Shown: positions 26,323 to 61,573 of the stretch, piece by piece
How positions within the stretch are numbered: position 1 is the stretch's first letter
Layout: each line of letters begins with the position of its first letter
IMG/VR virus record: IMGVR_UViG_3300006802_000086
Coordinates: 1-64,000 of that record
DNA: 64,000 nt
Reading direction: 5' to 3' (one strand)
Origin: a virus
The notes under the pieces: generated by a model
The model's database searches: none
Seen by the model: only the letters and a program-made list of their open reading frames with translations
Told to the model about the DNA's origin: nothing
Translations under genes and position numbers: made by a program

Positions 26323-27291
26323 ATGAAAATAACAAAAAAGCAACTAAATGCTCTAATTGAAAGTTTTTTATTGAATGAGGATAGCGAGGTTGATTACGAA
26401 TCTGAAGTGGGCGAAGAAGAAAATGAAACATCCGACAAAAAATCTTCTAGAGGCTACACTAAAGTTAAATATGCATCTCCATACTTAGGTAATACACTTT
26501 CTGAATTCCAGAACTGGGCGAGTAAAAATGGAATGCCTGGAGAGTTTATGAATTATCTAGATCATCTAGAAAATATTACAAATCGATCGAAAGAGCTTGG
26601 TAACTTAACAGACTTAACAAGCGCCGGAGGTGTCGGTGCAATAGGCGGACAATTGTCAACTGAACAGGGAAGAAAAGCTTATCAACAGGAACAAACTGAC
26701 GGTATAGCACTTTTTAGAAAATTTATGACTAATGCAAATGGGCCATATACGCAACAAGCATTTAGTGCCATTACCGACAAAGCCAAATCAATTATTGAAT
26801 ATATTTATTCTAACGGAGGTGCACCAGTCGGACCGGGAACTGAATGGTCACCATCTGCACTTATTGACAAAGTTAGAGGTTCACTCGCGTCAGTGTTTGG
26901 TGACACATCCCCTAGGTTTATGTGCTCTGACTCCGGTGCCATGATTGCATTAGTTCCAATGACTGTTGACTATCAAAAAAATAAGTATGTACCTGCTTTA
27001 GAGAAAGATATGCCTCACCCTGTCGACGTCGAGCTTAAAAAGATCAGGTCTACATTATCTAAGCCACCAGGATATCAGTCTGATATTGATATTAAAATAC
27101 CTGGTAGCGATAATTATCTTGAGCCGGCATATATCGTTCCTATTCGATCTATAAACGACATAGCTACAAGCCTATCTCTTGTGGATAAATTTAATGAAAA
27201 AAATCAACTTACTAAAAGTGATATCGATCAACAAATTAGAGATAGAGGTCAAGACTTAGTAACAGTTGTAATTGCATTCACGAAGGTATAG
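26323..27291 (+). CDS. Leader-bearing hypothetical protein (MKITKKQLNALIESFLLNE)
   Basis: Shared N-terminal motif followed by an acidic linker; SD AGGAG. Confidence 0.6.
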   Translation: MKITKKQLNALIESFLLNEDSEVDYESEVGEEENETSDKKSSRGYTKVKYASPYLGNTLSEFQNWASKNGMPGEFMNYLDHLENITNRSKELGNLTDLTSAGGVGAIGGQLSTEQGRKAYQQEQTDGIALFRKFMTNANGPYTQQAFSAITDKAKSIIEYIYSNGGAPVGPGTEWSPSALIDKVRGSLASVFGDTSPRFMCSDSGAMIALVPMTVDYQKNKYVPALEKDMPHPVDVELKKIRSTLSKPPGYQSDIDIKIPGSDNYLEPAYIVPIRSINDIATSLSLVDKFNEKNQLTKSDIDQQIRDRGQDLVTVVIAFTKV

Positions 27292-27328
27292 CTTAAGCCT
27301 AACTATAGTAATAGTAGTTACAAAACTT

Positions 27329-27359
27329 AAAAGAGCAATGTACATTGCTCTTTTTTTTT
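27329..27359 (+). terminator. Rho-independent terminator overlapping the clpP promoter
   Basis: AAAAGAGCAATG/TA/CATTGCTCTTTT perfect inverted repeat plus T run; TATAAT at 27362. Confidence 0.8.
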
Positions 27360-27404
27360 GTTATAATAAACTATAATTAAAATTGATAAATAAAAGGAGA
27401 ATCA

Positions 27405-28007
27405 ATGCTTTGGAAATATAATACGTCACCCCTCATTAAAGAGTACGAACTTCACATGCAACCCGTTATTGTAACAGTCAATAAGTTTGATGAAGAGTCT
27501 GCAAAAGAGTTTCGAAACAAAGTAGCATTAGCTCACAACACTGGCCAAAAAATCATTCCAGTTGTTATTGACTCTTACGGAGGACAAGTATATTCCCTAA
27601 TGTCAATGATATCGACAATCAAAGGGTCAGAGTTGCCTATCGCAACAATCGTCCAAGGTAAGGCTATGAGCTGTGGTGCTATTCTTTTCTCATTTGGAAA
27701 GGAAGGATATCGTTTCATTGATAGAAATGCAACAGTTATGATTCATGATGTTTCTTCAGGACAACTAGGCAAAGTTGATGAAGTTGTTGCATCAGCGAAA
27801 GAAACTGAAAGATTAAATGAAATTGTTTATAAAATGATGGCGCAGAATTGTGGTAAAAAAGACGATTACTTTTTAAAACTAGTAGACAAGAAAAAACACG
27901 CTGACTGGTTTTTGGATGCTGAAGAATGTATAAAACATGATCTGGCAAATCATATTAGAATACCAAAAATTAACGTCAATGTGGATGTTAACATTGATTT
28001 TGAATAG
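27405..28007 (+). CDS. clpP: ClpP-like serine protease
   Basis: IDSYGG, GKAMSCG (catalytic Ser), VMIHD (His), DWFLDAEE. Confidence 0.85.
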   Translation: MLWKYNTSPLIKEYELHMQPVIVTVNKFDEESAKEFRNKVALAHNTGQKIIPVVIDSYGGQVYSLMSMISTIKGSELPIATIVQGKAMSCGAILFSFGKEGYRFIDRNATVMIHDVSSGQLGKVDEVVASAKETERLNEIVYKMMAQNCGKKDDYFLKLVDKKKHADWFLDAEECIKHDLANHIRIPKINVNVDVNIDFE

Positions 28008-28035
28008 TTATCATTATTAACAGTGGGAGAGTCGA

Positions 28036-28500
28036 ATGGTAAATGAGTTAGCCCAGTATATTGGATGTACTAAAGCACTAGCGACATGGGTGCATGCTGC
28101 ACATCACGTTGCAAAAGGAAAAGGATTTATTGGTGATCATGAAAGTCTTTATGGAAAAATGTATGAGGAAATAATCGATGACTTTGATAAGCTAATCGAA
28201 AAATCTATTGTTATTACAGACTCAGAAGAGATAGCATGTCCTGTTACAATTACGAAAAATTCATTGCCGTTTGTGTCTAAATTTCAGTCACCTGCAAATC
28301 TAGATTCTGACATAATTGCTGTAACTGCATTAGACTTTATGCGTCACCATGTTGATCATTTAACCTCAGTGTATCACATACTAGATAGAGCCGGTGCACT
28401 AACGCTTGGTATGGACGATTATTTGGCTGCTGCAGCAAATCAATATGAAGAATATATATATCTGCTAGGACAACGTGTTAAGAGCGGGAGGGCATATTAA
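28036..28500 (+). CDS. Dps/ferritin-like protein
   Basis: HAAHHVAKGKGFIGDH...YEEIIDDFDKLIEK matches the Dps ferroxidase pattern. Confidence 0.7.
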   Translation: MVNELAQYIGCTKALATWVHAAHHVAKGKGFIGDHESLYGKMYEEIIDDFDKLIEKSIVITDSEEIACPVTITKNSLPFVSKFQSPANLDSDIIAVTALDFMRHHVDHLTSVYHILDRAGALTLGMDDYLAAAANQYEEYIYLLGQRVKSGRAY

Positions 28501-29393: not shown

Positions 29394-29495
29394 AATATTT
29401 TTACACTTTTAATGGCAATTATATAATTAATTGTTATTAGGATTACTTCTGTATTCCAAGTTTAGTTTAGTTTAGTTTTTGTTTGAGTATAGTTA

Positions 29496-42289: not shown

Positions 42290-42344
42290 TGATATAACTG
42301 GCTCTAACCTCATATATATGATTATATAGACAAAGGGTAAAGAT

Positions 42345-43352
42345 ATGCATGTCAAAATGTCAGATTTAAAATTAATTGTAGAAAGATTCTTAAAAGAACA
42401 AGAAGGCGACTGGCTAGGTGATGAAGAAGATAATCTAGGTAATTTAGGCGTAAACAGACTTGATCAAAAATTAAAAAATTTAAAAAATTTGTGTATTGAT
42501 CAGATTATTGATGAATTATCAAGCTCAAACTTTAGAGATCAAAACATTTCAGAACAGATGTTAAAAGTAGTAGAGCGAAACTTAAAAAATGTAAGTGTTG
42601 TTGTGTCAAAAGTCACAGCTAGTAAAGAAATTAATCTTTCTTCAATGGCTATTTGTTTTACACCTAACATTACACATACCAAAGAAGAAAATAATATGGT
42701 TTTACAGACACCTAAAATACCTAGCGACATCAATGATATTTCTAAAGATGTGCTTAGTAGATATAATTCTTCTCCTGGAAAATACCCAATCATACTTTTT
42801 CTAGAAAAAAATATATCCAGTGACATAGATGATCAGAAACTCAAAGATATTTTACTTCACGAATTAGGTCATGTTAAAAACAACACAATAAAGGCACTAT
42901 CATTAACAGCATCAGATCAGTCTGGAGAAAATATAGGAAACATTCAGCTTAATCGAGATGAGATAAAGTCAATTTTAAGAAAAGACTTTAAAGAAAAGTC
43001 TGTTAATGAAATAATATTCATATTAACTTCTGAAGGCTGGTTAGACAAAGAACAAAAAGATGAAAATCAAGAGTTAGTAAGTGAGCTTAAAGAATATTAT
43101 GATGGTGTTGAAGACTCAAGCAACATGAAAGCAGTTGAAGAGTTAGCTGTCAGAGTATCTGCGCTAAAAAGAAATAGTGAAGCTTTTACAAGATTTGTTG
43201 TCAATAAAGAAATAGATCGCTATACCAACATATCAAAAGATTATAATCTAGACATTGCTGACATAGTTTTACTTATAAGTAAAAATGCAAATACTAATGA
43301 TATAAATAAAATTGTCAAAAATAAGCAGTCAAGAAAAAATGTAACTGTATAA
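42345..43352 (+). CDS. Leader-bearing putative zinc metallopeptidase
   Basis: MHVKMSDLKLIVERFLKEQE leader; LLHELGH and a downstream EELAVR. Confidence 0.55.
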   Translation: MHVKMSDLKLIVERFLKEQEGDWLGDEEDNLGNLGVNRLDQKLKNLKNLCIDQIIDELSSSNFRDQNISEQMLKVVERNLKNVSVVVSKVTASKEINLSSMAICFTPNITHTKEENNMVLQTPKIPSDINDISKDVLSRYNSSPGKYPIILFLEKNISSDIDDQKLKDILLHELGHVKNNTIKALSLTASDQSGENIGNIQLNRDEIKSILRKDFKEKSVNEIIFILTSEGWLDKEQKDENQELVSELKEYYDGVEDSSNMKAVEELAVRVSALKRNSEAFTRFVVNKEIDRYTNISKDYNLDIADIVLLISKNANTNDINKIVKNKQSRKNVTV

Positions 43353-45210: not shown

Positions 45211-48200
45211 TTAAGCTAATGCTTTCTTGTTAGGCACTATTTTAACTAAAATTAAGAAAACTGTATGTGATCTGTTAATTGATATCTTTTTCATAGTTCC
45301 ACCTGTTGTCGATGTGTTGTCTAAATTACCACCAATTAATTTTCCTCCTGAGTAAACGTTCATATGTGCACCTGACTGAGGCTCCGATCCTGCAAATTTT
45401 TTAAAGGTTTTCATACCGCAACCAGAAGGAAGTCCTCTTTTAGAACTATAACCGTTAAGCGAAAAGACGCCGTCTAGAAGGTTTAAGTCAGATCTAGATT
45501 CGACCTCTTCCCTAGTAAAGGGTAGCAAAACTACTTGCCCGATAAAACTTTCAGGATCATTTTCAACTTCTTGTCTTTTTAACATTAATTGTGCCCACGG
45601 GTATGAAATCCCCATTTGCTTTGGCACGCTGTTTACTATATCGTAGGCAGGATGCGAAGGAGTTACCATTGCATTGAAAGTATGTCCACTCCAAGCTACT
45701 CTATTTAAGTACTTCCAACTATCTTTAATATTGACAGGCATGAATGTATCTGGGTGCATCAGCGCTATTTTTCCGTCACCATGATTTGTAATTGCTTGCT
45801 TGACAACAATATCATTTATTTTCTTAAGACCTTCTTCTGACTTTTCGCCAAACCCTGTGATTTGTGAAAGTAATCTCTCACCCTCAGCAGCACCTGCAGA
45901 CATGTCCAGCTGTTCAAACTTAATAGGTAAAGAATCCTCATCTAAAAATGCATGTTCCTTCGGATTAAAATTTTTCTTAGAAGCTTTTGAAGAGTTGTCC
46001 TTGACAGAATTCGAAGACTTCGATACTTGTTTTTCTTTTTCAATAATTTTTTTCTGAAGTTCACTATTTCCTTTAAACGATTTACTTACTGCATCTGGGC
46101 CGCTATAATTACCGTCCTTAATATCTTTGTATACTTTGGCAGGATTAATATAGTTTTCTTTAAATAAATAATTTCTAATTTTACGAACTGATTCATTCAA
46201 AGGTTCAATCTTAAAATTCTTGTCAACACCTCTTTTTGCCTGTCCTATCTGTCCGGACACGGAATCGACAGCAATAACAATGTCATCAATATAGAATTTA
46301 TAATATCTGTTTTTCATACCTCTGCCAGCTGTATATGTTCCAGGCTCACCTTTTTTATCTCCGTAAGCCATTTCCATTTTTCCACCGGTATCTTGATTTT
46401 TCTTTTTATTGAATTCCTGCGTAGCTTTTTTAATAGCTTCCGGGTCTTGTGCGAGTCTTACCATCTCTGCAACGCCTGAAGGATTTTTCTTTTTCGGATC
46501 ATTAAGTACTAAACTAGCCACTTGTGCAGCGTTATTTTTAAATTTAAGAATCGTTTCTTTTTTAACACCCTTGTCAATTGCTGCTTTTATAATCATGTCA
46601 ATATTTTTTTCGATCCAGGCCACCCAAGCTTTGTCTGTGTTAGGCCCCCAATCTCCATCAACTGTAGTACCAATAACACCTTGGACATATTCAACATCTT
46701 TTTTATTATTTTCTATTAAGACACTTTTAATTGCTTTTCTTAAGCTTGCTTCTGTTAAAATCATTTTACCTTTCCTTGTTTTAAAAATATTTTCTGCCAT
46801 GGCTTTTTGCTTAGGCATAATTTCTGATTCAATTGTTGCAACAAATTGCTCACCAGGCTTTTCATCAACATGCACACCATCTCTCGAGCTAGTAACATTT
46901 GACTCAAACCACGGGTAGGGATCGATAACATTAATTCTTCCTGACATTCCTAATTGAGACTCAACAGCATCAATACCTGCAACAATCTCTCTGTTTCTTT
47001 TTGCTCGAGTTGCTTTAAATTTTGAAACTTCTCGCTCAGGTTTTCCAGGGGTGTTGACATATGTTGTTTTCTCTGTAGGTTTAACTGCAGGCGGCGCCAA
47101 GACCCAAGTTATTTGTGCGTCTTCTGGGGCATTTTGTAAAATATCTTTTGCCAAATAACTAGCTCTGCTAGAACCGTTGCCGCCTAGCGTAAGGATAATA
47201 TTGTTTGTTCTGCTGACTGCATCAATAATTTTATCTTCCCCAAACTCACTCATGACGCCTGCTGGTGTAGCTCCGTTCTTCTGAAAAAAGTTCTTTCCCT
47301 TCGTAGCTGTGCCTAGGCGTTTTCTAATTCCTTTTCCTAGACCGCTGTTGCCTTGACTGTCTGCAATGTATACATACGGGAGAGGTTCGTCAGAAGATTC
47401 TCTCTGTTGTTTCTGTTCGCCACTTTCTCCTTCAAATCCTAATAAAAATAATTTAGCTTCTTCGTGCCTTCTCTTTTCTAGGCCCTGCACATATTCACCC
47501 TTGCTAGTTCTAGGTTTTGCATCTATTACATCAGCTGCTTCTTTATAACGACCTTGATTAATTAATTGCGTTATAGACTCGCCTTTATTATTTTTAAATT
47601 TATTTAAAGCACTTGCACCTCCATTAAAGCAATAACTTGCTAATGCAACAAACATGTTATGAGTGATTGGTGCTTTTAATTGTGACTTAAATACTCGTGT
47701 ATGTTTTGCAACGTCGCTTCCAAAGAGTTCTAGAGCTTGTTGTAAATTCATTTCCTTTGATCCACTTCCTAAAAATTCTTTAAATTTTTCTCTTTCGTTT
47801 GATCTAATTAAGTGCCCAATGCCAATTGTTGGATATCCGCTTGACTCTTCATAGCTATTTATTGTTCTCCCGCCTTTGTCATCATAAACTTTTGATCTAA
47901 AACCTTCACCGCCTTTTATAAATACTTGAATTTCTTTAGACACGTCTTCGTATTGACTAGCACTTTTTAATGTTTGATCCGCAGTAAATTTTCCACCACC
48001 AGCCTTGTTAATTTTTGCCTCAAGACCTTTGACAGCTTTGTTAACAATTTTAGCGTCTGAATTTGAATTATTACCTGGCGAAGTAGGAATATTAAGTTTT
48101 GACTTTGATTTCACAGCTTTCTTAAGTGTGTCAGCTTTTTTCTTGATAGTATCCTTAAACTCACTGCTAATTTTCTCTGCACCTTTTATGCTCCCAGATT

Positions 48201-49272
48201 CAATTCCTTTTTGGACTTTGTCAATAATTTTGCTTACATCTAATTTTCTCTCTCTTAGAATTTTATATCTATGTCTTTTTAGAATTCTTTGTTCTTTTAA
48301 GTATTCCCCGCCTTTTCCTCTAGGTCTTTGGTAAACTTCACCATCAGTATCAATAGCAACTGCAACATCATCAATCCAAAATTTTAAATAGTCTTTGTCG
48401 ATACCTTTGCCTGTCTCTGCTTTTTTAAACCCCATTAATACTGGCTCGTTATTTGTTCCAAATTTTTTAAGATACTCTTCATACTCTTCTTTAAAAGTTG
48501 TATATGCTAACTTAAAATGGTCATTGTTAAAACTACCTCGCCTTCCTAAGGTTTTGTCATCGCTAGGCAGGTCTTTAAGCGCATTTGCAATTTCTTCTTT
48601 AGATTTATTATCATTAATCCAGTCTCGAAACATATCACCCTTATCTTGGTTTAAATCTTTAGGAATTCTTTTAAGCTGCTCATCTGTAAATTCATATTTT
48701 TTATCTTTTGAAGATTTCGATTGTGATTTTGTTCCACCATATTTTTTATCTAAATTCTCACCACCTTTCTTGTTGATAGGTGTCCAAGGTCCATTATTTT
48801 TACTGTAACTCCACCCAAATTCTGCAGAAGGATCTTTTTTGTATTTGTAAACACCGTCGCCATCATCGTATATTTTTTCTTTAGAAAAATTTTCTATCTT
48901 TCCTATTTGTTCAGCGGCCGGCCCTGAAATAACTTTATATTTGCCATTACCTAAGTCTTCGTAAGTAAAGCCTGATAAGTCTTTGTCAGATTTAATCCCA
49001 AGTTCTTGAGCATTTTTACCTAAAGTTTCTTTTTTGGTAAATTCTTCATAATAAGTTTTAAGCATGTAATAAGCTACTCTTTTCCCATCAGGAACATCTG
49101 CCTTATCTAAAGCTGCCTTTATATTTGGTGCTTTTGTAGATTTAAAACGCAAAGCATTGTCATTAGAGCCAAAACCTGTGTCAAAGCCTATATACTTTTT
49201 TGATTCTTCTTGCTCGCGAAGAAGTCTTTTGAGTGATTTAATTTTAATAAGTTTGTTTAGATTGTTATTCAT
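45211..49272 (-). CDS. Multidomain cell-envelope hydrolase: GH24 lysozyme, SGNH esterase, PG-binding domain and possible amidase-like C-terminus (1353 aa)
   Basis: EGFRSKVYDD..GYPTIGIGH..ALASYCFN..GLEKRRHEEAKLF; IADSQG/LGGN/DGVH; VDGDWGPNT; AWSG...H...IGGN. Confidence 0.75.
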   Translation of the reverse strand: MNNNLNKLIKIKSLKRLLREQEESKKYIGFDTGFGSNDNALRFKSTKAPNIKAALDKADVPDGKRVAYYMLKTYYEEFTKKETLGKNAQELGIKSDKDLSGFTYEDLGNGKYKVISGPAAEQIGKIENFSKEKIYDDGDGVYKYKKDPSAEFGWSYSKNNGPWTPINKKGGENLDKKYGGTKSQSKSSKDKKYEFTDEQLKRIPKDLNQDKGDMFRDWINDNKSKEEIANALKDLPSDDKTLGRRGSFNNDHFKLAYTTFKEEYEEYLKKFGTNNEPVLMGFKKAETGKGIDKDYLKFWIDDVAVAIDTDGEVYQRPRGKGGEYLKEQRILKRHRYKILRERKLDVSKIIDKVQKGIESGSIKGAEKISSEFKDTIKKKADTLKKAVKSKSKLNIPTSPGNNSNSDAKIVNKAVKGLEAKINKAGGGKFTADQTLKSASQYEDVSKEIQVFIKGGEGFRSKVYDDKGGRTINSYEESSGYPTIGIGHLIRSNEREKFKEFLGSGSKEMNLQQALELFGSDVAKHTRVFKSQLKAPITHNMFVALASYCFNGGASALNKFKNNKGESITQLINQGRYKEAADVIDAKPRTSKGEYVQGLEKRRHEEAKLFLLGFEGESGEQKQQRESSDEPLPYVYIADSQGNSGLGKGIRKRLGTATKGKNFFQKNGATPAGVMSEFGEDKIIDAVSRTNNIILTLGGNGSSRASYLAKDILQNAPEDAQITWVLAPPAVKPTEKTTYVNTPGKPEREVSKFKATRAKRNREIVAGIDAVESQLGMSGRINVIDPYPWFESNVTSSRDGVHVDEKPGEQFVATIESEIMPKQKAMAENIFKTRKGKMILTEASLRKAIKSVLIENNKKDVEYVQGVIGTTVDGDWGPNTDKAWVAWIEKNIDMIIKAAIDKGVKKETILKFKNNAAQVASLVLNDPKKKNPSGVAEMVRLAQDPEAIKKATQEFNKKKNQDTGGKMEMAYGDKKGEPGTYTAGRGMKNRYYKFYIDDIVIAVDSVSGQIGQAKRGVDKNFKIEPLNESVRKIRNYLFKENYINPAKVYKDIKDGNYSGPDAVSKSFKGNSELQKKIIEKEKQVSKSSNSVKDNSSKASKKNFNPKEHAFLDEDSLPIKFEQLDMSAGAAEGERLLSQITGFGEKSEEGLKKINDIVVKQAITNHGDGKIALMHPDTFMPVNIKDSWKYLNRVAWSGHTFNAMVTPSHPAYDIVNSVPKQMGISYPWAQLMLKRQEVENDPESFIGQVVLLPFTREEVESRSDLNLLDGVFSLNGYSSKRGLPSGCGMKTFKKFAGSEPQSGAHMNVYSGGKLIGGNLDNTSTTGGTMKKISINRSHTVFLILVKIVPNKKALA

Positions 49273-50432: not shown

Positions 50433-52589
50433 ATGAGAATTTCAAGGCGACAACTCGGTCTATTGATAGAAAATTATTTACTCCAAGAAACGCGGCAAGC
50501 AAGACAATGGATACAAAATTCAGTCCCAGCTGAAGAACAGCAAGACTATTTAGATGCATACAATAGAGGGGTCACGATTTTATCAGACCTCTCTTGGATT
50601 AAAAAAGTAAGAGGCGGTGAGCCTGTTGCTGATATTGTGGGTGATGTTATAAGCTTTAGGATGGATGACAGTCAAACAAAACTGTTAGCCAACGGTTTTC
50701 CAACTGATCTAACAAAAAGAAACTATCCCACAGTTGGTGAACTGAGAAGAGCTCTAGCAGTTATTAATACAGATTTAGACATGTCAAGAAATCAAGATAT
50801 CTCTATAGAAACATCAAGCCCTAATATCGATGTTATTGGTAATATAGGCCCGTGGACAATTCTCTTGCCTAAGACAAAAGAAGGATCGACAGCTTGTGAC
50901 ATTAGCGGTAAAGATACCACTTGGTGCACTACCAAAACAAGAGGACAAAACTTATTTTATAATTATGCAAAAGATGATTTATTCTTATATTATGTAATGG
51001 ATTACAGTCGCACCCCGGATGACCCATACAAAAGCCAAGACAGAGCATGCGTAGAAAACAACGATAGTCGTCTATCAGTTGGAATTATTAGAGGTGAAAT
51101 AACCTTGGAAGGTGAAGATGGCGGTGTTTCTGTTGACGCTGCGAATAAAGGACTCTATCCCGAAGACTTAGAAAGTGCTCTAGGTCAATATCATGATCAG
51201 GTAATTAATTTAATCAAAACCAACTTTGATTCTCACCAGTCACATCCGGGTAGAGAAAAATTTAGACAAGCAGCACAAAATATTGTTATTATGCGTGATG
51301 CAGTTAGAGACTTGACGCCGCCTGCCAAGGCTGATTTTTTAGGTGAAGTATCCTATTCAACAAGCATGACACCCGAAGTTGTAGTCTATTTATTTAATTT
51401 TGCTAACGAACCAATTAGAACTAAAGACTACAATACGGATGACTGGTTTTTAGAGCATGAAAGTAAAGGCAGGATTATTGAAAATATTTTTCTTAATGAG
51501 CCTAGTGCAAGCATTCCTGTGCGACTAAGAAAGTCTTTAATAGTAGAGCTAACTAAGAAACTAGGTGAAGAAGGCTTATACGCCTACCAAGATGCACGTG
51601 GATGGTACGTCGGAACGGCAGCATCAGAACTACTAAATTCACAAAAAGAAGTTAAATCATATTTAGACCTATTGCTAGAATATTCAAATAGCCGATCTTA
51701 CGATACTACGTTTGGAGATCCTATAGAGCAAATTTTAGAATCCTATTTAAGAAAACTCGACTTAAGTGATCCTGAGGTGTATCAGATAACTTTGAGTTTT
51801 ATTCCTAACGCAAGAAGCACAAATTCAATTGTCCCTATTGTTAAAAATGAAAGTATCGAAGAGAGTGTACTAGAGGACATTCTTATAAATACGCCACTCT
51901 TGCAAAACAAAGACAAAATGAGTCATGTTGCTTACGAATTATTAAATGCTCGCGCGCTCGCCATCCAACAAGTAATGGCCGAAAGAAAATTTGGAAACGG
52001 ATTAAGCGCTGAGTTTTTACAAAAACATGCAAGAAGACTAACTAACGATTTTAAAGATAGAATGAGTTTAACAAAGTTGCTTTTTCAAGAAAATTTGCCT
52101 AAAAGCTTGTTTGACGAAATATTTGATTACGTCGATACCATTGTTAAGACACCGCGGACACCTGAACAGCAAAGAAACTACATTGTAGTACTAAAGGACA
52201 TGTTGAGGCACCCTTTCATGCCTGACGATGTAATAAATGAATATTCTAATGACCCAGAATTTCATGAACCACTATTGTCGAGGGTTTGGAGCACTAACAC
52301 AACTAACCCTGAAGTAGTTGAAAAGATTCTAGAAACTACAAAAGATCCGATCCCTCCATATTTTCATGACATACTAGCTAATAGTAACATGACAAAAAGA
52401 ACTTATGAAATATTAATAAACTTGCTTGATGAAGGGCTAGCTGATATGCAAGAACTAGGCGCAGTTGGAATGTTTGAGTTCAATCTAGATCCACCTCACA
52501 GTGCTGAAGATGTAAGAAGATGCTTTGAGCACGCTTACGCCGCTGGACTAGCTAAATTAAGAGAGAGAAGGGCAGAGTTTGAGATATAA
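50433..52589 (+). CDS. Leader-bearing protein with WCT domain and helical repeats
   Basis: MRISRRQLGLLIENYLLQE; TTWCTT..GQNLFYNY; paralog of 59228. Confidence 0.6.
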   Translation: MRISRRQLGLLIENYLLQETRQARQWIQNSVPAEEQQDYLDAYNRGVTILSDLSWIKKVRGGEPVADIVGDVISFRMDDSQTKLLANGFPTDLTKRNYPTVGELRRALAVINTDLDMSRNQDISIETSSPNIDVIGNIGPWTILLPKTKEGSTACDISGKDTTWCTTKTRGQNLFYNYAKDDLFLYYVMDYSRTPDDPYKSQDRACVENNDSRLSVGIIRGEITLEGEDGGVSVDAANKGLYPEDLESALGQYHDQVINLIKTNFDSHQSHPGREKFRQAAQNIVIMRDAVRDLTPPAKADFLGEVSYSTSMTPEVVVYLFNFANEPIRTKDYNTDDWFLEHESKGRIIENIFLNEPSASIPVRLRKSLIVELTKKLGEEGLYAYQDARGWYVGTAASELLNSQKEVKSYLDLLLEYSNSRSYDTTFGDPIEQILESYLRKLDLSDPEVYQITLSFIPNARSTNSIVPIVKNESIEESVLEDILINTPLLQNKDKMSHVAYELLNARALAIQQVMAERKFGNGLSAEFLQKHARRLTNDFKDRMSLTKLLFQENLPKSLFDEIFDYVDTIVKTPRTPEQQRNYIVVLKDMLRHPFMPDDVINEYSNDPEFHEPLLSRVWSTNTTNPEVVEKILETTKDPIPPYFHDILANSNMTKRTYEILINLLDEGLADMQELGAVGMFEFNLDPPHSAEDVRRCFEHAYAAGLAKLRERRAEFEI

Positions 52590-53116: not shown

Positions 53117-53164
53117 ATGAAGCTGTCAAGAATTCAATTACGAAGATTGATTTTTGAAGCTTAA
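53117..53164 (+). other. Leader-only mini-ORF MKLSRIQLRRLIFEA
   Basis: Hand-translated; SD GGGAG upstream; matches the shared leader. Confidence 0.55.
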
Positions 53165-53195: not shown

Positions 53196-54089
53196 ATGCT
53201 AATTAAAAAATCTGAATTAAAAAAATTAATTGAAAGCTTTTTAAACGAAGAAGAGGATACACCTAAAAAACCTACAATCGTTGAAAAACCAAAAACAAAG
53301 GCCTTCAATCCTTCAACAAATCCTCAGCAGAATAAAATGTTTTACCCAGTAATGTCTGGAAATCATGAAGGAGGATTTTTAGCAGAAGTTGAAGGATCTG
53401 GCTTCTATATGTTATTAGATGAAGACGAGGTCTCAAGATGGAATAATCCAGATGCAGTAGTTAAAAAAATCGATGCAGTTAAAAGAGCCATAGAGGCTAA
53501 CGGCTTTTCCATACCTGAAGCAAAGTTAATCAAACATGTTAATGACGGAAGAGTTGTATTTGCAACAAAACTAGTAGAACCGGTATCATCTGACGAAAAA
53601 GTAATTTACAAAATATATGACGCAGTTTACGACACTATTTTAGATAGTTCAGCAACAGCACTCGGCTTTGATATTTTAAGCCCTTCACTTCAACTATTAA
53701 GCAGTGAAATCAATGCAGCGCAAGCAGCAAAAAAAATGTCCCAAGGAAGATTTTTAGATGCCGGAATTGCAGCCATCGCATCATTACCCTATTTTGTACC
53801 CGGAAAGGTATTAACCCCTCTTAAATCACTAAGTGTAACCAATCAATCTCGAGCGATGAACTTGATTTATAGTTCTCCGGCGATCCAACAAGCCTTGTGG
53901 TCAATTGTTCATTGGCTTCAAGAACACGAAATGCAAATTAGGGAAGTGCTTGAAAAGATAGTGTCTGTATGTGAGTTCACATACGGCGAATTTAAAGAAG
54001 GAGCAGGAATGGCCATTGACTATACATGGCGTCTACTTAAGGCATTTTTTAAAAGCTTGACAAATGAAGAATTTAAACTGCCTAGTTAA
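53196..54089 (+). CDS. Leader-bearing hypothetical protein with a pre-toxin-TG-like hydrophobic segment
   Basis: MLIKKSELKKLIESFLNEEE; GRFLDAGIAAIASLP. Confidence 0.55.
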   Translation: MLIKKSELKKLIESFLNEEEDTPKKPTIVEKPKTKAFNPSTNPQQNKMFYPVMSGNHEGGFLAEVEGSGFYMLLDEDEVSRWNNPDAVVKKIDAVKRAIEANGFSIPEAKLIKHVNDGRVVFATKLVEPVSSDEKVIYKIYDAVYDTILDSSATALGFDILSPSLQLLSSEINAAQAAKKMSQGRFLDAGIAAIASLPYFVPGKVLTPLKSLSVTNQSRAMNLIYSSPAIQQALWSIVHWLQEHEMQIREVLEKIVSVCEFTYGEFKEGAGMAIDYTWRLLKAFFKSLTNEEFKLPS

Positions 54090-54106: not shown

Positions 54107-55030
54107 ATGCTAATTAAAAAATCTGACTTAAAAAAAATAATTAACGTCTACTTAAGAGAACAAGCTTCTATATCCAAAGTCATGGCAAAGCAAACCACAA
54201 AGAAAAATTTACAATCTGATCTTGACCAAGGAACAGTTGAAAGTGTATTAGGACTTCTTGGTGACGCGTCAGAAGTATATGCGGCAATCACAGATGAAGC
54301 AAAAGCAGTTCAATTTTCTGAAAATTTTATTAATGCACTGTATGTTGCTTCTCCGGAAATTGTTGATTTTTTAAGTAATCCTAAGATTAGGAATGCCGTC
54401 GTCAAATTAAAATCTTTAATAAAATCGTCAACAATTGTTGTAAAGCTTGGTTCACTGACAGTACTGTCTGAAGTATTAGGGTTTTTAATGTTAGTACTTG
54501 CAGTACCTAGAATGGCATATCAAGTTTTAGATAATTTAGCATCTGTTGAAGGTCAATTAGTTAATTTAAAGAAAGCACCTGGCCGGAAAAATGAAGGAAA
54601 GCCTTTAAAACCTGAAGATCTTTCTGATAAATTTACAACAGGAGGCCTAGCAAAACTAGGAATAAAAACCAAAAATGATCTATTTCTTATTTTAGCTGCA
54701 AACATAATATCTGAAAAAGAAGGACAAAACATCGGATTTAAGATGCTCCAAGATGGGATAATTTCAAATGAATTCTGGGGTGAAATATTAAAAGCTAGAA
54801 AAAAAGTCAAAAGCCGGCCAATTGATGATATGAATGAATTGATTGAAAAAGCAGATAAATTACCAAAAGAAATAAAACACAATGCAATTGTGCTAGGTTT
54901 TGTAACAAATGTTTTAGGCGGATTATTTGCAATCCAATCTGAAAATATTCAGCAGACACTCTCTATAAAAGGATTTTCCCCTGATGATATAATTAAGTTT
55001 TCTGCGCAAGCATATGATAGCATTAAATAA
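54107..55030 (+). CDS. Leader-bearing hypothetical membrane-associated protein
   Basis: MLIKKSDLKKIINVYLREQ; hydrophobic LGSLTVLSEVLGFLMLVLAVP. Confidence 0.55.
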   Translation: MLIKKSDLKKIINVYLREQASISKVMAKQTTKKNLQSDLDQGTVESVLGLLGDASEVYAAITDEAKAVQFSENFINALYVASPEIVDFLSNPKIRNAVVKLKSLIKSSTIVVKLGSLTVLSEVLGFLMLVLAVPRMAYQVLDNLASVEGQLVNLKKAPGRKNEGKPLKPEDLSDKFTTGGLAKLGIKTKNDLFLILAANIISEKEGQNIGFKMLQDGIISNEFWGEILKARKKVKSRPIDDMNELIEKADKLPKEIKHNAIVLGFVTNVLGGLFAIQSENIQQTLSIKGFSPDDIIKFSAQAYDSIK

Positions 55031-55039
55031 AAGTTAATA

Positions 55040-55099: not shown

Positions 55100-58000
55100 A
55101 TGGACATTAAATTATTAACACCACCCGATCGATTTGTTGGCTTTCATGGTCATACAGGATTTTCTGTTTTTGACGGTCTAGGTTATCCATCTGATCATAT
55201 CGACTTTGTACTTGAAAACGGTATGGATGCTTGGGCACTAACTGATCACGGAAACGGCAGTGGATTAGCACATGCTTATAAACATGCACAAAAAATCCAA
55301 AAGTCTGGTCGCAAATTCCGTCAAATTTACGGTTGTGAATTCTATTTTGTTCCGTCACTTAAAGACTGGAAATCCGACTACGAACAAGCCAAAGTAGATC
55401 GAGCTGCAGCAAAACAAGCTGCACTTAAAGAAGACGAAGAAGGCGGTCATATTATTGAAAACGAAGATGAGACTAAGACTTTGGATTTAGGTAAAGACGA
55501 ATGGAAACGACGTTATCATCTGGTTGTTACTGCACAAAACCGCGAAGGTTTAGGTAATTTATTTACCCTGATTAAACGTGCCTATACAGACGGCTTTTAT
55601 AGATATCCTCGCATTGACTTTGATCTACTTAAGCAGTATGGAAAGGGTTTGACAGTATCGACAGCTTGCCTAGGTGGCATCTTTTCTAATCGAATTATGC
55701 GTGGTAACGCATTAAACCTCACAGACGAACAAATTCAAAACGAATTATTGTACTTATCTGATCGATTTGTTGATGCTGTGGGCGAAGACAATTTCTATTT
55801 AGAGGTGCAGTTTAATAGACTTAAGCAACAACATCTCGTAAATCATCATTTATTGCGTCATGCTGATAAAACAGGGCTTCAGCTTATTGCGACTCCTGAC
55901 TCTCATTATTACTCACCGGATAAATGGGAGGCAAGAGAGTTATATAAGAAACTAGGGTGGATGGGTAATGATCCATCACCACTTCCTGAATTCGAGGATC
56001 TTAAGTGTGAACTATATCCTAAAAATGCACAACAAATGTGGGATGAGTTTACTCGACACTATGATGAGTACAAAGAAACATATGAAGGTTACGAAGAGGC
56101 AATTAAAAAGTCAATTGAAATTACACATGATATTGCATGGGAAAAGTGTGAAGACTGCTGGATTGATACTTCTGTTAAACTTCCCGATTTCAATCGACCT
56201 GATCAAACAGCTTTCCAACAGCTTGCAGACAAAGTCAAGCATGCAATCGTTAAGGAAGGCCTTCATACAAAAACTGAGTATGTCGAAAGAGCTAAACACG
56301 AATTAGAAGACATTAAATTCTTAGGTTTTGAAAATTATTTTCTAGTGATGAATGAAGTATTTCATAAAGCTGCTGATCATACCTTGTTCGGAGCAGCACG
56401 CGGTTCTGGTGGTGGATCACTTGTAAATTACTTGTTAGGAATCACGCAGGTCGATCCGCTTAAATATGACTTACTTTGGGAACGTTTTCTGGGTAGACAC
56501 AGAACTTCATGGCCAGATATTGACTCCGATGCAGGTGATCGTGATGCACTAATCAATGCAGCGCGTGAGTTATACGGTGATGAGGCTGTTATTCCAGTGT
56601 CTAACTTTAACACACTTAAGCTTAAATCCTTAGTAAAAGACATTGCCAAGTTTTACGGTGTCGATTTTGGTGAAGTCAATAAAATGACAGGACCTCTCCA
56701 AGATGAAGTCATGGCACAAGCACGAGATGAAAACACAGAAAAGTCTGTGTTTGTTCTTAAACACGCAGACTGTATGGAATATTCAAAAGGTTACCGCTCT
56801 TTTATGGAAAAATATCCAAAAGTAAAGGATCATATTGAATCCCTCTTTATGCAAAACAGATCGATTGGTCGACATGCCGGTGGAGTTATTATCGGCCCAC
56901 CAGAAGACTTAGAACAATCAATGCCAATTATTGGTGTTCGCGGTGAACTACAAACACCTTGGACAGAAGGTATGAACTTTCGAAATCTTGAAGACAATGG
57001 GTTTATTAAGTTTGACTTTCTTGGACTTACACTTCTAAAAGATGTTGAAAACTGCATCCGACGAATTCTTACACGTGAGCGAGGCGAAGAACCTACGTTT
57101 CTAGAAATCCGCGATTGGTTTGACAAACATCTGAACTGTCGATATGTTGATCAGGACGACGATGCAGTTTGGAAACATGTCTATCATCAACGTCGAAAGG
57201 TAGGTGTATTTCAGTTCACTGCTGAAGGTGCACGCCGATTTTGTGAAGATGCAAAACCAACAAACATTGAAGAGCTGGCCGCACTAACAGCAATTTATCG
57301 ACCCGGGCCTCTTCGTGCCAACGTTCATAAAAAGTATGTCAAAGATAAGATGAATTCAGATGAAATTCATTATGCACACCCAATCATTCAGGAAATTCTC
57401 GGCCCAACTTTTGGACATGTAACATTCCAAGAGCAGTTCATGCTTCTCGCACAAAAGCTAGGCGGGTTTACACCAGCTGAGTCAGATAAGCTTCGAAAGA
57501 CCCTGGTAAAGAAATCCTTGGATACAATGGGTAAGAAAGGAGATGAACGTGAAGCAGCTAGAGTTAAATTTGTGACCGGTGCGAAAGAAATCAATGGCGT
57601 ACCAGAACATATCTCCCAAGAGCTATGGGAACGGATTGAATTTTTCTCAGTTTACGGCTTTAATAAATCTCACGCTATTGCCTATGCAATTGGGTCTTAT
57701 TATGCAGCGTGGCTTCACACATACTATGAAACTGATTGGTTAGGTACAATTCTTCAGTCTGAAAACAATAACCCAAATGCTTTATCAAAAGCAATTGCCG
57801 AGATTAAAGAAATGGGCTATCGCATTGAACTACCAGATGTTAATGAATCAGGTACGTATTGGCAATGGTCAGATCGAAAGCAAGCATTTATCCCACCTTT
57901 AACATCAATTAAAGGCGTAGGAAAAACTGCAGTTGTTGAAATTATGGAAAATAGACCGTATGAGTCAGTTGACGATATGTTGTTTGATAGGGAAGGGAAG

Positions 58001-58618: not shown

Positions 58619-58654
58619 ATACATATATATGCATGCATTACTTATGAGGTGTCT

Positions 58655-59200
58655 ATGAAGATTACAAGAATGGAATTAAGAAGACTAATTCAAGAGTCTT
58701 TAAGCATGAACGAAAGTTTGTCACTAATCATTAGCGGCGTTTTGGCTGCCCCTGTGCTTTTAGAAGGGCTAGCCCACATAATAGAAAAAGCAGGGAAAAA
58801 GTTTGGAAGAGAAAAGGCCGAGCTCAAAGCAGAAAATCTCGAGCACTTTGCTCATAAAGTACACGGTGTGTATGAAGCACCGATTAAATTTTTAATTAAA
58901 AAGTCAGCAAAAGCTGCAAAAAAAGAGATATCAGAAGAAAAAGTACAAAAATATACTGATATTATTTTTGGTATTATTATTGCATGCTTAATGGCTAGCG
59001 CAGGTTTATCAATACTAGAACACGCTAAACACTTAGGACCGCATGCTGAACTAGTAACTACAGGAATGTTAGCTCTAGAATCTGCTGATATTGTTGTCGA
59101 AGGAGTTGAATTATCACAAATTATTTCTCGTCTCAAAAATCCGGCGAGTCATGAAAAATTAGCAGCAGCTATTGAAGAGCATTCAAAATCACATCATTAA
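58655..59200 (+). CDS. Leader-bearing membrane protein
   Basis: MKITRMELRRLIQESLSMNE; hydrophobic helices; His-rich; SD GAGGTG. Confidence 0.6.
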   Translation: MKITRMELRRLIQESLSMNESLSLIISGVLAAPVLLEGLAHIIEKAGKKFGREKAELKAENLEHFAHKVHGVYEAPIKFLIKKSAKAAKKEISEEKVQKYTDIIFGIIIACLMASAGLSILEHAKHLGPHAELVTTGMLALESADIVVEGVELSQIISRLKNPASHEKLAAAIEEHSKSHH

Positions 59201-59227
59201 AGCTTTGAAAGCAATAAGAGACCGGCG

Positions 59228-61573
59228 ATGAAAATAACACGTAGACAGTTAAGTACATTGATAGAAAATTACTTAAAGCAAGATAATATACTTTTTGAAA
59301 TAAAAAAGAAATCATTTAATCAGTTTATAGCAAGAGGTTTAATGACCCAGCAAGAATTTGATATATACGTTTTTCGAAATGACTGGGTTGCGCCTTTTAC
59401 TGATCCTGTAATACGCAAAGTTCTCTTCAATACATTGAACGCTGATGAAGGGCATAGTGTTAGAGAAATTGCTGAGCGTGGTCAAGAGTTTTTGGAAAGA
59501 ATTGTTGATCTTGCCAGAACACCTGACCCGGACAACCCAGGTCAAAATATGCTCAAGTCCACACGCGTAAGAGGTACTTCAGGAGTTAATCCTAATGATA
59601 TCATAGATATAAATAGCAAGATAGATGTTGACAACCCTGACAATACAGCAGCAACTTATAATGATATGTCAAGCTACTTAGAGAACCGATCTGGTATTGC
59701 TAAGAGAGCTGACGTGCTAACAAACGCAATTCAGGCAGGATTTGACGGCACTGATACATCTAATTTTGAAGTAATTTCTGCACCGGGAAGCCCTTATGTT
59801 GTGACTTATCCTAAAACCTATAAAGGATCGATAGCTGTTGCACGTATGGGCCCAGACTTTCAGTATTACGATCCGAACACCTCTGCAGGTCGACAAGTGA
59901 TTGGAAAAATGACATGGTGTACATCAGTTGATAGTGCAGGAAACATGTTCTTAAATTATCACCGCGCACAAAATCTGCACATGTACTACTTAGTCAAAGT
60001 TAAAGACTATAACCCTACTAGCCCAGATAGAAAACTTTGCTTAAGTTTTGCCAAGACAGACTCCGGAGACGTAATATATCGAACCGGGCACTCATCTGTC
60101 GACGGAGATAACAAAGCACTAAGTGAGAAAGACGCAAAAGAATACATTGGCAAGTCATTGTTCGAAACAATTGTCAATGATGTCAAAAGACCAGAAAGAT
60201 TAGTAATCAATCCTGTAAAATACTACAAGTCAATAAATTTAGAGCAATATATTGACATGAGAAACGCACATCAGAATGAACAAGATACAAAGCTTTTTGC
60301 TAAAGAAGCTGAACAAATTGCAAAATATACAGAAAATAATGACATTATAAAAGCAATCCTAGGTGATAACAATCCAATTGTTTCAGGAGTTGCTTATCCT
60401 TATATAAAGGACAGTAAAGTCTTTGACTCAATTATAGAAAAAAGCAATGGAAACATAGATGTTTTTATTAACCTCTTTAAGGCAAAAGCACTACAACCTC
60501 AGCATATCAAGAAAATTTATATGACGTCTAGGCAAGGAGGAAAAGTTGATCCTGACATTATGGTATATGCTACAGAGCACGCATCAACGCCCCTCGATGT
60601 ATTGAATTTAGTTTTTGATGATGCGCTAAATGATCGGTTAATTCCAAAAGAGTCTGGTTTTAAAACGTATAATTCACTCTTTGTAATATGTCAATTAGTT
60701 AGGAGTAAAAATGCTTCATCTGATTTACTTAGAAAAGTGTATGCATATTTAGACAAAAATAGAAATATTGATTATACTAACAGCTATATTCCATTAATCG
60801 CTAGCCATCCAAACACACCTCCTGATTTAATTGCAAAAGAAATCGAAGGTCTAGTAACACCCTCAAGCAATCCTTTGTCAGCACACTCCGGAACATCATC
60901 GTCAGGTCATAGTAGGACAGATGCCGCGATGATGATAAGAAGAATCATCAGTGGTATTAGCAATGAAATGTTTGAAGCAATTGGTGAAAAAACATTTAAA
61001 AATATATTAGACTATTTTGTCATACAAGATTTTGCAAATTATCAACCGTTAGCTATAGCAAATCGATTTACAGAAAACCATAGATTGTCCTTGGAATATG
61101 CGCTAAAAATGTTTGAATATGCAATGTTTAAAGAAAACGAGCCTAAACCTCGAGGCAAAGAAAGTTTAACCTTAAAATGGGCAGATCTAGCAACTGCATT
61201 TGCTGAGAATCTATCAATGTACGTTTATCCTGTAAGCATTTATATTGATGAAAATCCACATTACAATGATTACATGATGGAAGTTGCAATGCCTCTCTCT
61301 GAACAAGACTTAAATGGTACAACAGAGATACATGGTCTTTTAAATGGATTTTATGGACAATCTCATACAATACAGCTCCAAAAGTCAATAGAAGAATATA
61401 TTCAAAAATATAGCGAACAGCCTGAAAACGATAATCCTGACTATAATATCTATGCACAACAGTTGTTGAAAATAGTGAAAGAAATAAATAGAAAAAAGCA
61501 GGAGTATGCTCAATATTCTCGAAGAACAGGGTTCCAATTCCCTAGCAAGTATAGCAATATGTTTGAATATTAA
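59228..61573 (+). CDS. Leader-bearing protein with WCT domain and LRV-like helical repeats
   Basis: MKITRRQLSTLIENYLKQ; MTWCTS..GNMFLNY; HASTPLDVL, SKNASSDLL, SHPNTPPDLI. Confidence 0.6.
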   Translation: MKITRRQLSTLIENYLKQDNILFEIKKKSFNQFIARGLMTQQEFDIYVFRNDWVAPFTDPVIRKVLFNTLNADEGHSVREIAERGQEFLERIVDLARTPDPDNPGQNMLKSTRVRGTSGVNPNDIIDINSKIDVDNPDNTAATYNDMSSYLENRSGIAKRADVLTNAIQAGFDGTDTSNFEVISAPGSPYVVTYPKTYKGSIAVARMGPDFQYYDPNTSAGRQVIGKMTWCTSVDSAGNMFLNYHRAQNLHMYYLVKVKDYNPTSPDRKLCLSFAKTDSGDVIYRTGHSSVDGDNKALSEKDAKEYIGKSLFETIVNDVKRPERLVINPVKYYKSINLEQYIDMRNAHQNEQDTKLFAKEAEQIAKYTENNDIIKAILGDNNPIVSGVAYPYIKDSKVFDSIIEKSNGNIDVFINLFKAKALQPQHIKKIYMTSRQGGKVDPDIMVYATEHASTPLDVLNLVFDDALNDRLIPKESGFKTYNSLFVICQLVRSKNASSDLLRKVYAYLDKNRNIDYTNSYIPLIASHPNTPPDLIAKEIEGLVTPSSNPLSAHSGTSSSGHSRTDAAMMIRRIISGISNEMFEAIGEKTFKNILDYFVIQDFANYQPLAIANRFTENHRLSLEYALKMFEYAMFKENEPKPRGKESLTLKWADLATAFAENLSMYVYPVSIYIDENPHYNDYMMEVAMPLSEQDLNGTTEIHGLLNGFYGQSHTIQLQKSIEEYIQKYSEQPENDNPDYNIYAQQLLKIVKEINRKKQEYAQYSRRTGFQFPSKYSNMFEY

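What the first reader, a model, noticed from the sequence alone, without database searches (positions are those of the whole stretch)
26323..61573. Dispersed family of unrelated proteins sharing an N-terminal leader: candidate capsid-loading address for an injected payload arsenal
Seen: near-identical first ~18 residues on proteins whose bodies are otherwise unrelated. 26323 MKITKKQLNALIESFLLNE; 42345 MHVKMSDLKLIVERFLKEQE; 50433 MRISRRQLGLLIENYLLQE; 53117 MKLSRIQLRRLIFEA; 53196 MLIKKSELKKLIESFLNEEE; 54107 MLIKKSDLKKIINVYLREQ; 58655 MKITRMELRRLIQESLSMNE; 59228 MKITRRQLSTLIENYLKQ; 49272(-) ..IKSLKRLLREQEE. The motif is a basic amphipathic helix usually ending in (L/I)-x-E. No replication or metabolic gene in the window carries it. 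Established: T4 internal proteins use a short N-terminal capsid-targeting sequence, and the T4 prohead protease gp21 cuts after (L/I)-x-E. Inference: this is a portable tag that loads diverse cargo (peptidase, membrane helices, repeat proteins, wall hydrolases) into the head for injection. The genes are scattered as plug-in cassettes between early operons.
Basis: partly seen in the sequence, partly recalled or inferred. Interest (0 to 1): 0.88.

Follow-up and report, generated by a model that had tools for sequence, protein, structure and literature searches.

The report
Shared head-loading-type leader on phage proteins
Seven genes in this fragment of an uncultured huge T4-related phage (ten on the whole contig) start with the same roughly 16-residue peptide in front of mostly unrelated bodies; it most likely works like phage T4's "load into the head, then clip off" tag, used here on a much larger scale, but nobody has seen the loading or the cut.

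Summary
A model built only from other viral contigs finds 10 N-termini on this 79-kb contig, 7 of them in the window, at 11-30 bits. The next best N-terminus scores 2.4 bits. Every match starts at Met1, and conservation is at the protein level, not the DNA level. "Near-identical" is overstated, since median identity over 18 residues is 39%.

The leader is M-K-I-T-[KR]-x-Q-L-x-x-[LI]-I-E, extended here by x-[FY]-L-x-x-E. It is virus-specific and widespread in uncultured marine T4-related phages. This scan had already noted it on other DNA.

The contig has no T4-type head protease; its ClpP-like gene is a separate enzyme. However, 5 of 5 large relatives encode the T4 gp21-type protease, including a relative with the same gene order, whose head genes lie just upstream of where this contig starts. 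Elsewhere, leader genes cluster beside that protease gene. All 10 leaders carry its L/I-x-E cutting motif.

Against a close relative, the leader genes are exactly the ones replaced, as whole cassettes.

Head loading followed by trimming is the best reading (about 0.55). Injection of an "arsenal" is much less supported: the bodies are acidic and almost all lack known domains.

The parts
26323..27291 (+). Leader gene, 322 aa; leader at 26323-26379 (MKITKKQLNALIESFLLNE). It lies in a replaceable slot between the ribonucleotide reductase gene and the ClpP-like gene, with its own upstream motif and a downstream hairpin terminator.
   Evidence: 30.4 bits on the independent HMM. No Pfam or PHROG match. 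In relatives G006 and G011 the same slot holds a different leader protein; those two are 65% identical to each other and match this one only over the leader. DNA similarity to the relatives stops at 26256-26259 and resumes at 27322-27354.
42345..43352 (+). Leader gene, 335 aa, with a diverged leader (MHVKMSDLKLIVERFLKEQE). The body has an invariant HExxH motif and is a possible zincin-like metallopeptidase.
   Evidence: 18.7 bits. Orthologues carry the canonical leader, and H172, E173 and H176 are invariant. The fold matches to zincins are weak, Z 4.6-6. The gene is absent from the matching site in G006.
50433..52589 (+). Leader gene, 718 aa; a distant paralogue of 59228.
   Evidence: 25.8 bits. 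24% identity to 59228 over the N-terminal domain. Its slot in G006 holds only a 70-aa ORF.
53117..53164 (+). Leader-only mini-ORF (MKLSRIQLRRLIFEA, then a stop); probably the remnant of a lost cargo gene.
   Evidence: Read directly from the sequence. 6.6 bits on the seed HMM.
53196..54089 (+). Leader gene, 297 aa.
   Evidence: 23.1 bits. It matches its neighbour 54107 only over the first 24 residues. No orthologue in G006.
54107..55030 (+). Leader gene, 307 aa, with a weaker leader (MLIKKSDLKKIINVYLREQ).
   Evidence: 11.1 bits. No orthologue in G006.
58655..59200 (+). Leader gene, 181 aa. The body has two long hydrophobic stretches and may be a membrane protein.
   Evidence: 23.1 bits. Sequence shown. 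No orthologue in G006.
59228..61573 (+). Leader gene, 781 aa: leader helix, a conserved alpha/beta domain (about residues 140-330) and a C-terminal armadillo/HEAT-like repeat region.
   Evidence: 28.9 bits. 34 homologues, all unnamed, with the leader conserved across them. AlphaFold2 model with mean pLDDT 82. The only Foldseek matches are armadillo and importin repeat proteins. The G006 orthologue is only 36% identical, against 60-94% for the backbone genes.
26269..26276 (+). CATATATA motif 54 nt upstream of leader gene 26323; candidate late promoter element.
   Evidence: Six independent intergenic sites stand in front of the tail tube gene 3639, gene 35104, leader genes 26323, 42345 and 58655, and 45211-49272(-). 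Nine matches were found against 3.8 expected, and none of 100 shuffles reached nine. The looser form YATATATA also precedes the amidase gene at 28500. The exact motif is not conserved in G006 or G011.
42311..42318 (+). CATATATA motif 34 nt upstream of leader gene 42345.
58622..58629 (+). CATATATA motif 33 nt upstream of leader gene 58655; gene 59228 follows after a 27-nt gap.
27405..28007 (+). Context: ClpP-like protease gene. It is not the prohead protease of this lineage.
   Evidence: PF00574 match at 3e-24. It has its own terminator and a TATAAT-type promoter. The gene is conserved in G006 and G011, and G011 additionally has a gp21-type protease in a T4-like head module.
45211..49272 (-).
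   Evidence: Leader HMM score 0.0 bits. PF00959 match at 6.5e-18. It shares the CATATATA upstream motif and occupies a slot that holds other genes in G006.

Best explanation
The leader is most likely an N-terminal prohead-targeting propeptide, analogous to T4's capsid targeting sequence but with a different sequence. As an amphipathic helix (about residues 5-16), it would dock newly made proteins onto the scaffolding core while the head assembles. A T4 gp21-type head protease would then cut it off after Glu at the built-in L/I-x-E sites, at residue 13/14 and, in this lineage, also at 18/19. Shown here: the tag exists, sits only at Met1, is selected at the protein level, and is virus-specific. 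It sits on unrelated cargo in replaceable cassettes. It also co-occurs and clusters with gp21-type protease genes. Inferred, not shown: docking, cutting, retention in the head and ejection into the host. The gp21-type gene of this particular phage is also inferred; it should lie in the roughly 74% of the genome that is missing, just upstream of the contig start.
For: (1) The tag is specific and separates cleanly from other sequence. Across viral contigs, 63 of 63 pattern matches lie at ORF starts. In 596 Gb of cellular genomes there were only 23 matches, of which about 2 look genuine. (2) Protease link. The T4 gp21 family (Pfam PF03420) is present in 5 of 5 large relatives found through the tail sheath. 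It is also present in 4 of 5 other large leader-bearing records. G011 shares gene order with this contig and has terminase, portal, gp21, a scaffold-like gene and a T4-type major head protein 11-21 kb upstream of its sheath genes; that is where this contig begins. (3) Clustering. 15 of 44 fragmentary leader-bearing records hold gp21, against 7.9 expected from their completeness (P=0.004). The control family DnaB_C is found in 8. In L005, L020, L044, L057 and the complete genome G002, a leader gene lies 0-1 genes from gp21. In G002, 5 of 11 leader genes lie within 10.3 kb of it (P=0.004). (4) Cutting motif. All 10 leaders here, and 99 of 102 elsewhere, contain [LI]-x-E, against 26% of background N-termini; Glu14 occurs in 70 of 102. 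gp21 cuts after L/I-X-E, and T4 propeptides are 10-20 residues long (PMC9026906, PMC5694885). (5) Cargo turnover. Against the close relative G006, backbone genes are 60-94% identical, while leader genes have no orthologue or only a 36%-identical one. The same slots hold other leader genes. T-even internal proteins likewise share only the targeting sequence (PMC3012670). (6) Leaders are more alike within a genome than between genomes (0.62 against 0.53, permutation p<=0.001), as expected for a tag matched to one genome's receptor. (7) Three leader genes share an upstream motif with the tail tube and endolysin genes.
Against: There is no virion proteomics and no cultured relative; a tblastn search of 50,697 phage records with the leader found only one uncultured record. 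No gp21-type gene lies on this contig. The leader HMM matches neither T4 IPI, IPII and IPIII nor gp21, gp22, gp23, gp24 and gp68, so the likeness to T4's tag is one of format, not detectable homology. The bodies are acidic (median pI 5.0 against 5.6 for the background, p=9e-6), whereas mature T4 internal proteins are basic (pI 7.9-9.7). One cargo, 58655, looks membrane-embedded. Most of the window's leader genes lie among replication and nucleotide-metabolism genes and have no late-type motif of their own. The gp21 association is partly phylogenetic, because all carriers are T4-related.
Confidence: 0.55

Rival explanations
1. The tag recruits expendable accessory components into the scaffolding core. 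These are degraded and expelled at maturation, like T4 gp22, gp67 and gp68. On this reading the proteins are not a payload delivered to the host.
For: The bodies are acidic, and the stretch after the leader is rich in Asp, Glu, Gly and Pro. In several marine T4-related contigs, leader genes occupy the positions next to gp21 where T4 has its core genes. Many cargo proteins are small and lack known domains.
Against: Expendable scaffold parts would not be expected to turn over completely between close relatives while the head genes stay conserved. Some cargo is large and well folded, such as the 781-aa armadillo-repeat protein and the HExxH protein.
Confidence: 0.15
2. The leader is a recognition tag or degron for the phage's ClpP-like protease working with a host unfoldase. 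It would set the lifetime of a group of proteins and have nothing to do with the virion.
For: A ClpP-like gene lies directly after the first leader slot here and in G006 and G011. PF00574 is present in 3 of 5 leader-carrying genomes tested.
Against: The complete genome G014 has leader genes but no ClpP. Leader genes cluster with gp21, not with ClpP. The ClpP-like gene has an early-type promoter, whereas some leader genes share the tail-gene motif.
Confidence: 0.08
3. The leader is a general docking or oligomerisation helix used inside the infected cell, for example to gather the proteins on a common host or phage partner. Loading into the capsid plays no part.
For: It is a short charged amphipathic helix. 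Leaders have a genome-specific flavour. One cargo appears to be a membrane protein.
Against: This does not explain the conserved Glu in an L/I-x-E context. Nor does it explain the clustering beside the head protease gene.
Confidence: 0.12
4. The leader has no tag function. It is a relic of new genes being born by copying an existing 5' end, and is kept because it gives efficient translation initiation.
For: The first codons are A-rich. Tandem arrays exist, such as 16 leader genes in 9.8 kb of L048. A leader-only stub lies at 53117.
Against: Leu8 is invariant in 102 of 102 leaders and Ile12 is present in 95 of 102, while the codons vary. Within protein families whose bodies have diverged to 30-40% identity, the leader stays conserved. 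Whole cassettes are swapped with no DNA similarity in the leader.
Confidence: 0.07

Closest known systems
Capsid targeting sequence (CTS) of phage T4 internal proteins IPII and IPIII (MKTYQEFIAE; read from the T4 record), removed by the prohead protease gp21
   Same: It starts at Met1 with M-K and is short: 13-19 residues here, against 10-20 in T4. It ends in I/L-x-E, the gp21 cutting motif. It sits on unrelated, fast-changing cargo genes scattered outside the head module. Carrier lineages encode gp21-type proteases (PMC9026906, PMC5694885, PMC3012670).
   Different: No sequence similarity is detectable by HMM. The tag is longer, with two candidate cut sites. There are at least 10 tagged genes in 79 kb, against a handful in T4. 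The cargo is mostly acidic, while T4's is basic. It is found only in uncultured phages, so nothing has been tested.
Propeptides of inner-head and ejection proteins of phiKZ, 201phi2-1 and SPN3US, cut by gp21-related S80 proteases
   Same: These are huge phages with many head-internal proteins, processed after Glu at a three-residue motif (PMC5694885, PMC9026906).
   Different: Those propeptides are mostly longer than 100 residues, their motif is S/A/G-x-E, and they share no common N-terminal sequence. Here one short shared leader is reused, with L/I-x-E.
Encapsulin cargo-loading peptides
   Same: A short portable peptide directs unrelated cargo into a shell with the same fold as phage capsids (own knowledge).
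   Different: They are usually C-terminal, are not removed, and belong to cellular compartments rather than virions.

Membership tests
T4-type capsid targeting sequence / gp21-processed head-internal proteins | A short propeptide (10-20 residues) at the extreme N-terminus | tested here: met
   All ten matches begin at Met1, and the conserved part spans 16-19 residues.
T4-type capsid targeting sequence / gp21-processed head-internal proteins | The propeptide ends in the gp21 cutting motif L/I-x-E | tested here: met
   10 of 10 leaders have it ending at residue 13-15 or 18-19, against 26% of background N-termini. The motif definition comes from PMC9026906.
T4-type capsid targeting sequence / gp21-processed head-internal proteins | A gp21-type (S77, PF03420) prohead protease in the same genome | tested here: inconclusive
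   Absent from this contig, which is 26% complete. Present in 5 of 5 large relatives, including G011, which shares gene order.
T4-type capsid targeting sequence / gp21-processed head-internal proteins | Sequence similarity to the T4 targeting sequence | tested here: not met
   The leader HMM gives no match to T4 IPI, IPII or IPIII, nor to the N-termini of gp21, gp22, gp23, gp24 or gp68.
T4-type capsid targeting sequence / gp21-processed head-internal proteins | The protein is present in the virion with the propeptide removed, and the tag alone is enough to package a foreign protein | not testable with these tools
   There is no cultured carrier and no proteome.
T4-type capsid targeting sequence / gp21-processed head-internal proteins | Mature cargo is basic and associates with DNA, as in T4 IPI-III | tested here: not met
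   Median body pI is 5.0, and 76% of bodies are below pI 6. Mature T4 internal proteins have pI 7.9-9.7.
ClpP-type (S14) prohead protease system | The protease gene lies in the head module between the portal and capsid genes and is the only head protease | tested here: not met
   The gene lies between the reductase gene and Dps-like and amidase genes, behind a TATAAT-type promoter. Relative G011 has both this gene and gp21 in a T4-like head module.

The most novel reading that the evidence does not exclude
The leader could be a sequence-readable address that marks the whole set of head-packaged, host-injected proteins of a large group of uncultured marine T4-related and huge phages. That set would comprise hundreds of unrelated, mostly acidic protein families, which could include DNA-mimic-type counter-defence proteins. 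The genome-specific variants of the tag would co-evolve with each phage's scaffolding core. The injected proteome could then be predicted from sequence alone.
Probability: 0.25. Interest if true: 0.8.

Novelty: new variant of a known kind. Interest (0 to 1): 0.62.

Why it matters
T4 shows that a 10-residue tag is enough to load any protein into a phage head and deliver it into a cell. The T4 literature has suggested this may be a general way for T4-like phages to vary what they inject. This leader would be the first sign that the strategy is used on a large scale in nature. It has a different tag sequence and is carried by abundant uncultured marine phages, on the very genes that turn over fastest between relatives. 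If confirmed, it gives a simple sequence rule for finding packaged or injected proteins in metagenomes. Many of those are likely host-takeover or counter-defence factors without known domains. It would also give a second, independent tag for protein packaging in engineered phage heads.

Tried and rejected
- A repeated DNA element or shared promoter and 5' end as the cause was rejected. Codons differ, the upstream DNA is unrelated, and no DNA similarity runs through the leader when cassettes differ.
- The ClpP-like gene at 27405 as the prohead protease was rejected.
- Megablast of 20 kb of the window and tblastn of the 59228 protein against 50,697 phage records found nothing. tblastn of a marine leader protein also found nothing. 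A 22-residue consensus leader found only the uncultured record LR756508.
- A search of the paper library for leader strings gave no papers.
- Pfam and PHROGs gave nothing for seven leader proteins.
- The ESM Atlas search for 26323 was uninformative; its model has pLDDT 0.36.
- No close relative of the 26323 protein was found in IMG/VR.
- The 367-kb genome G001 has only 1-2 leader genes and is not close kin, so it did not help.
- T4's late promoter TATAAATA is not used upstream of these genes. The exact CATATATA motif is not conserved in G006 or G011, so the evidence on timing is weak.
- PHROGs did not recognise scaffold candidates or leader proteins located next to gp21.
- Gene 35104-36981, first suspected to be the capsid protein, has no head-protein match and varies in length between relatives. 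It is more likely a fibre-type protein.
- The Foldseek search with the whole 781-residue model left the conserved alpha/beta domain of 59228 unexplained.


Full report
**What the DNA is.** The window is the first 64 kb of a 78,992-bp IMG/VR viral contig. CheckV rates the contig 26% complete, which implies a genome of roughly 300 kb. It encodes two tail sheath paralogues, a tail tube protein and a baseplate hub protein. It also encodes a UvsX-like recombinase, ribonucleotide reductase, ThyX, a DnaE-type polymerase and other nucleotide-metabolism enzymes. No cultured phage is close. The best sheath match is 30% identical, to the uncultured 484-kb record LR756508.

**Checking the observation.**
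- Ten genes on the contig begin with M-[KR]-I-[TS]-[KR]-x-[QE]-L-x-x-[LI]-I-E. In this lineage the motif usually continues x-[FY]-L-x-x-E.
- A seed HMM run over all six frames scored the ten at 21-28 bits. The next best hit scored 8.4 bits.
- To avoid circularity I built a second HMM from 102 distinct leaders found in other viral contigs. It scores the ten at 11.0-30.4 bits. The next best N-terminus scores 2.4 bits, and the best internal stretch in about 22,000 residues scores 4.5 bits.
- Codons for the conserved residues vary and the upstream DNA is unrelated, so selection acts on the peptide.
- With the first 25 residues removed, only 50433 and 59228 are related to each other.
The N-terminus at 49272(-) scores 0.0 bits. 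The ORF at 53117 is a 15-residue leader followed by a stop. The leaders are a motif with a median of 39% identity, not near-identical copies.

**Distribution.**
- A degenerate DNA pattern for the leader found 60 stretches in IMG/VR. All 63 matches lie at ORF starts, and most have a ribosome-binding site.
- Some contigs carry arrays of leader genes: 16 in 9.8 kb of L048.
- The same pattern found only 23 matches in 596 Gb of cellular genomes. Most are internal to genes or belong to unrelated proteins such as ScpB; about two look genuine.
- A consensus leader matched nothing among 50,697 deposited phage genomes except LR756508.
- No paper in the library contains the leader strings.
- Earlier notes of this scan describe the same MKITK leader on another marine T4-related phage. 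I tested that lead independently here.

**The protease question.**
- The contig has no T4 gp21-type (PF03420) gene. It has a ClpP-like gene at 27405.
- That gene sits behind a terminator and a TATAAT-type promoter, among non-head genes.
- Relatives found through the sheath protein include five large records. All five encode a gp21-type protease.
- G011 is the closest large relative (134 kb, sheath 65% identical). It matches this contig in gene order from the two sheath genes through helicase, reductase, a leader gene and the ClpP-like gene.
- G011 carries terminase, portal, gp21, a scaffold-like gene and a T4-type major head protein 11-21 kb upstream of the sheath genes.
- This contig starts inside the first sheath gene, so its head module should lie just off its 5' end. 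The ClpP-like enzyme is therefore an extra enzyme, not the head protease.

**Link between the leader and the head module.**
- Four of five other large leader-bearing records encode gp21.
- Among 44 fragmentary leader-bearing records, 15 contain gp21. Their completeness values predict 7.9 (P=0.004).
- A control core gene, DnaB_C, is found in 8 of the 44, all of them larger fragments.
- In four whole-contig loci (L005, L020, L044, L057) a leader gene lies 0-1 genes from gp21. T4 keeps its core genes 67, 68 and 22 in these positions.
- In the complete 187-kb genome G002, 5 of 11 leader genes lie within 10.3 kb of gp21, one of them immediately after it (P=0.004).

**Cutting motif.** gp21 cuts after Glu in L/I-X-E. 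T4's own protease carries LIE-9, and Alt is cut at ITE-6 (PMC9026906, PMC5694885). All ten leaders here contain [LI]-x-E ending at residue 13-15 or 18-19. So do 99 of 102 leaders elsewhere, and Glu14 is present in 70 of 102. Only 26% of ordinary N-termini have such a site. One caveat applies: my retrieval pattern required Glu13 in at least one leader per locus, so the count at position 13 is biased. The count at position 14 is not.

**Cassette behaviour.**
- G006 is a close relative with the same gene order; its backbone proteins are 60-94% identical. The leader genes are exactly the ones with no orthologue (26323, 42345, 53196, 54107, 58655, 68936, 70020, 75117) or a very diverged one (59228 at 36%).
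- The same slots in G006 hold other leader genes.
- In the slot between the reductase and ClpP-like genes, G006 and G011 share a 65%-identical leader protein. This contig has an unrelated body behind the same kind of leader.
- DNA similarity stops at 26256-26259 and resumes at 27322-27354, so the promoter, leader and cargo were exchanged as one unit.
- Leaders are more alike within a genome than between genomes (0.62 against 0.53, p<=0.001).

**Timing.** A CATATATA motif occurs at six independent intergenic sites. They stand in front of the tail tube gene, gene 35104, the minus-strand lysozyme protein and three leader genes. A looser form also precedes the amidase gene. The exact motif is not conserved in relatives, and most leader genes lack one. 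The evidence for late expression is therefore only suggestive.

**Cargo.**
- Pfam names almost none of 110 leader proteins.
- The 59228 family has 34 unnamed homologues with a conserved leader. Its model shows a leader helix, an unexplained alpha/beta domain and an armadillo/HEAT-like repeat region.
- The 42345 family has an invariant HExxH motif and weak fold matches to zincins, Z 4.6-6.
- The 58655 protein has hydrophobic stretches of membrane type.
- Bodies are more acidic than other proteins of these phages (median pI 5.0 against 5.6, p=9e-6). Mature T4 IPI-III have pI 7.9-9.7.
- The leader HMM matches no T4 head or internal protein.

**Verdict.**
- The tag is real, modular and virus-specific, and it is tied to the T4-type head maturation machinery.
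- The best reading is a capsid-targeting-type propeptide that is loaded into the prohead core and removed by the gp21-type protease (about 0.55).
- Whether the cargo stays in the head and is injected is open (about 0.3). An expendable core role, a ClpP or chaperone tag, or a non-virion docking helix remain possible.
- I class it as a new variant of a known kind of system.
- This scan had already noted the same leader on other DNA. This window adds four things: the huge-phage lineage, the extended leader with two candidate cut sites, the evidence for whole-cassette replacement, and the statistics on clustering beside gp21.

Noticed in passing
window 27405-28007: A ClpP-like protease gene with its own terminator and TATAAT-type promoter. 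It is conserved (84% identical) in relatives that also encode a gp21-type head protease. Its role is unknown.
   Followed up: partly
window 45211-49272 (-): The only credible minus-strand gene: a 1353-aa protein with a phage lysozyme domain and the CATATATA upstream motif. It occupies a slot that holds two leader genes and an unrelated minus-strand gene in G006.
   Followed up: partly
G000:C1:68936-69370 (beyond the window): The body of this 144-aa leader protein contains a G-L-G-T-D-E ... R-S stretch that looks like an annexin-type repeat. This was seen by eye only.
   Followed up: no
window 11-601 and 626-3601: Two tandem tail sheath paralogues; the first is cut by the contig end. G011 has the same pair (1031 and 984 aa).
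   Followed up: partly
L048 (IMGVR_UViG_3300020438_006626): An array of 16 small leader genes in 9.8 kb. In some cases a second leader lies in frame inside a longer ORF with no stop between them.
   Followed up: no
window 56082-56126 (+), inside dnaE in another frame: A leader-like start (MKVTKRQLKSQLKLH, 8.4 bits) in an alternative frame of the polymerase gene. It is probably chance.
   Followed up: no
L176:10159-10704 (G011), L044:1006-1452(-), G002:102215-102688: A small conserved protein encoded just after gp21 or after the leader gene next to it. Its leader-like N-terminal region (..ELKKILKPLIKECIKE..) is shared by very different T4-related marine phages. It may be a core protein related to the origin of the tag.
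   Followed up: no
window 35104-36981: A 625-aa protein with the late-type upstream motif. Its length varies between relatives (797 aa in G006, 43% identical) and it has no family match. It is probably a fibre or receptor-binding protein rather than the capsid protein.
   Followed up: partly
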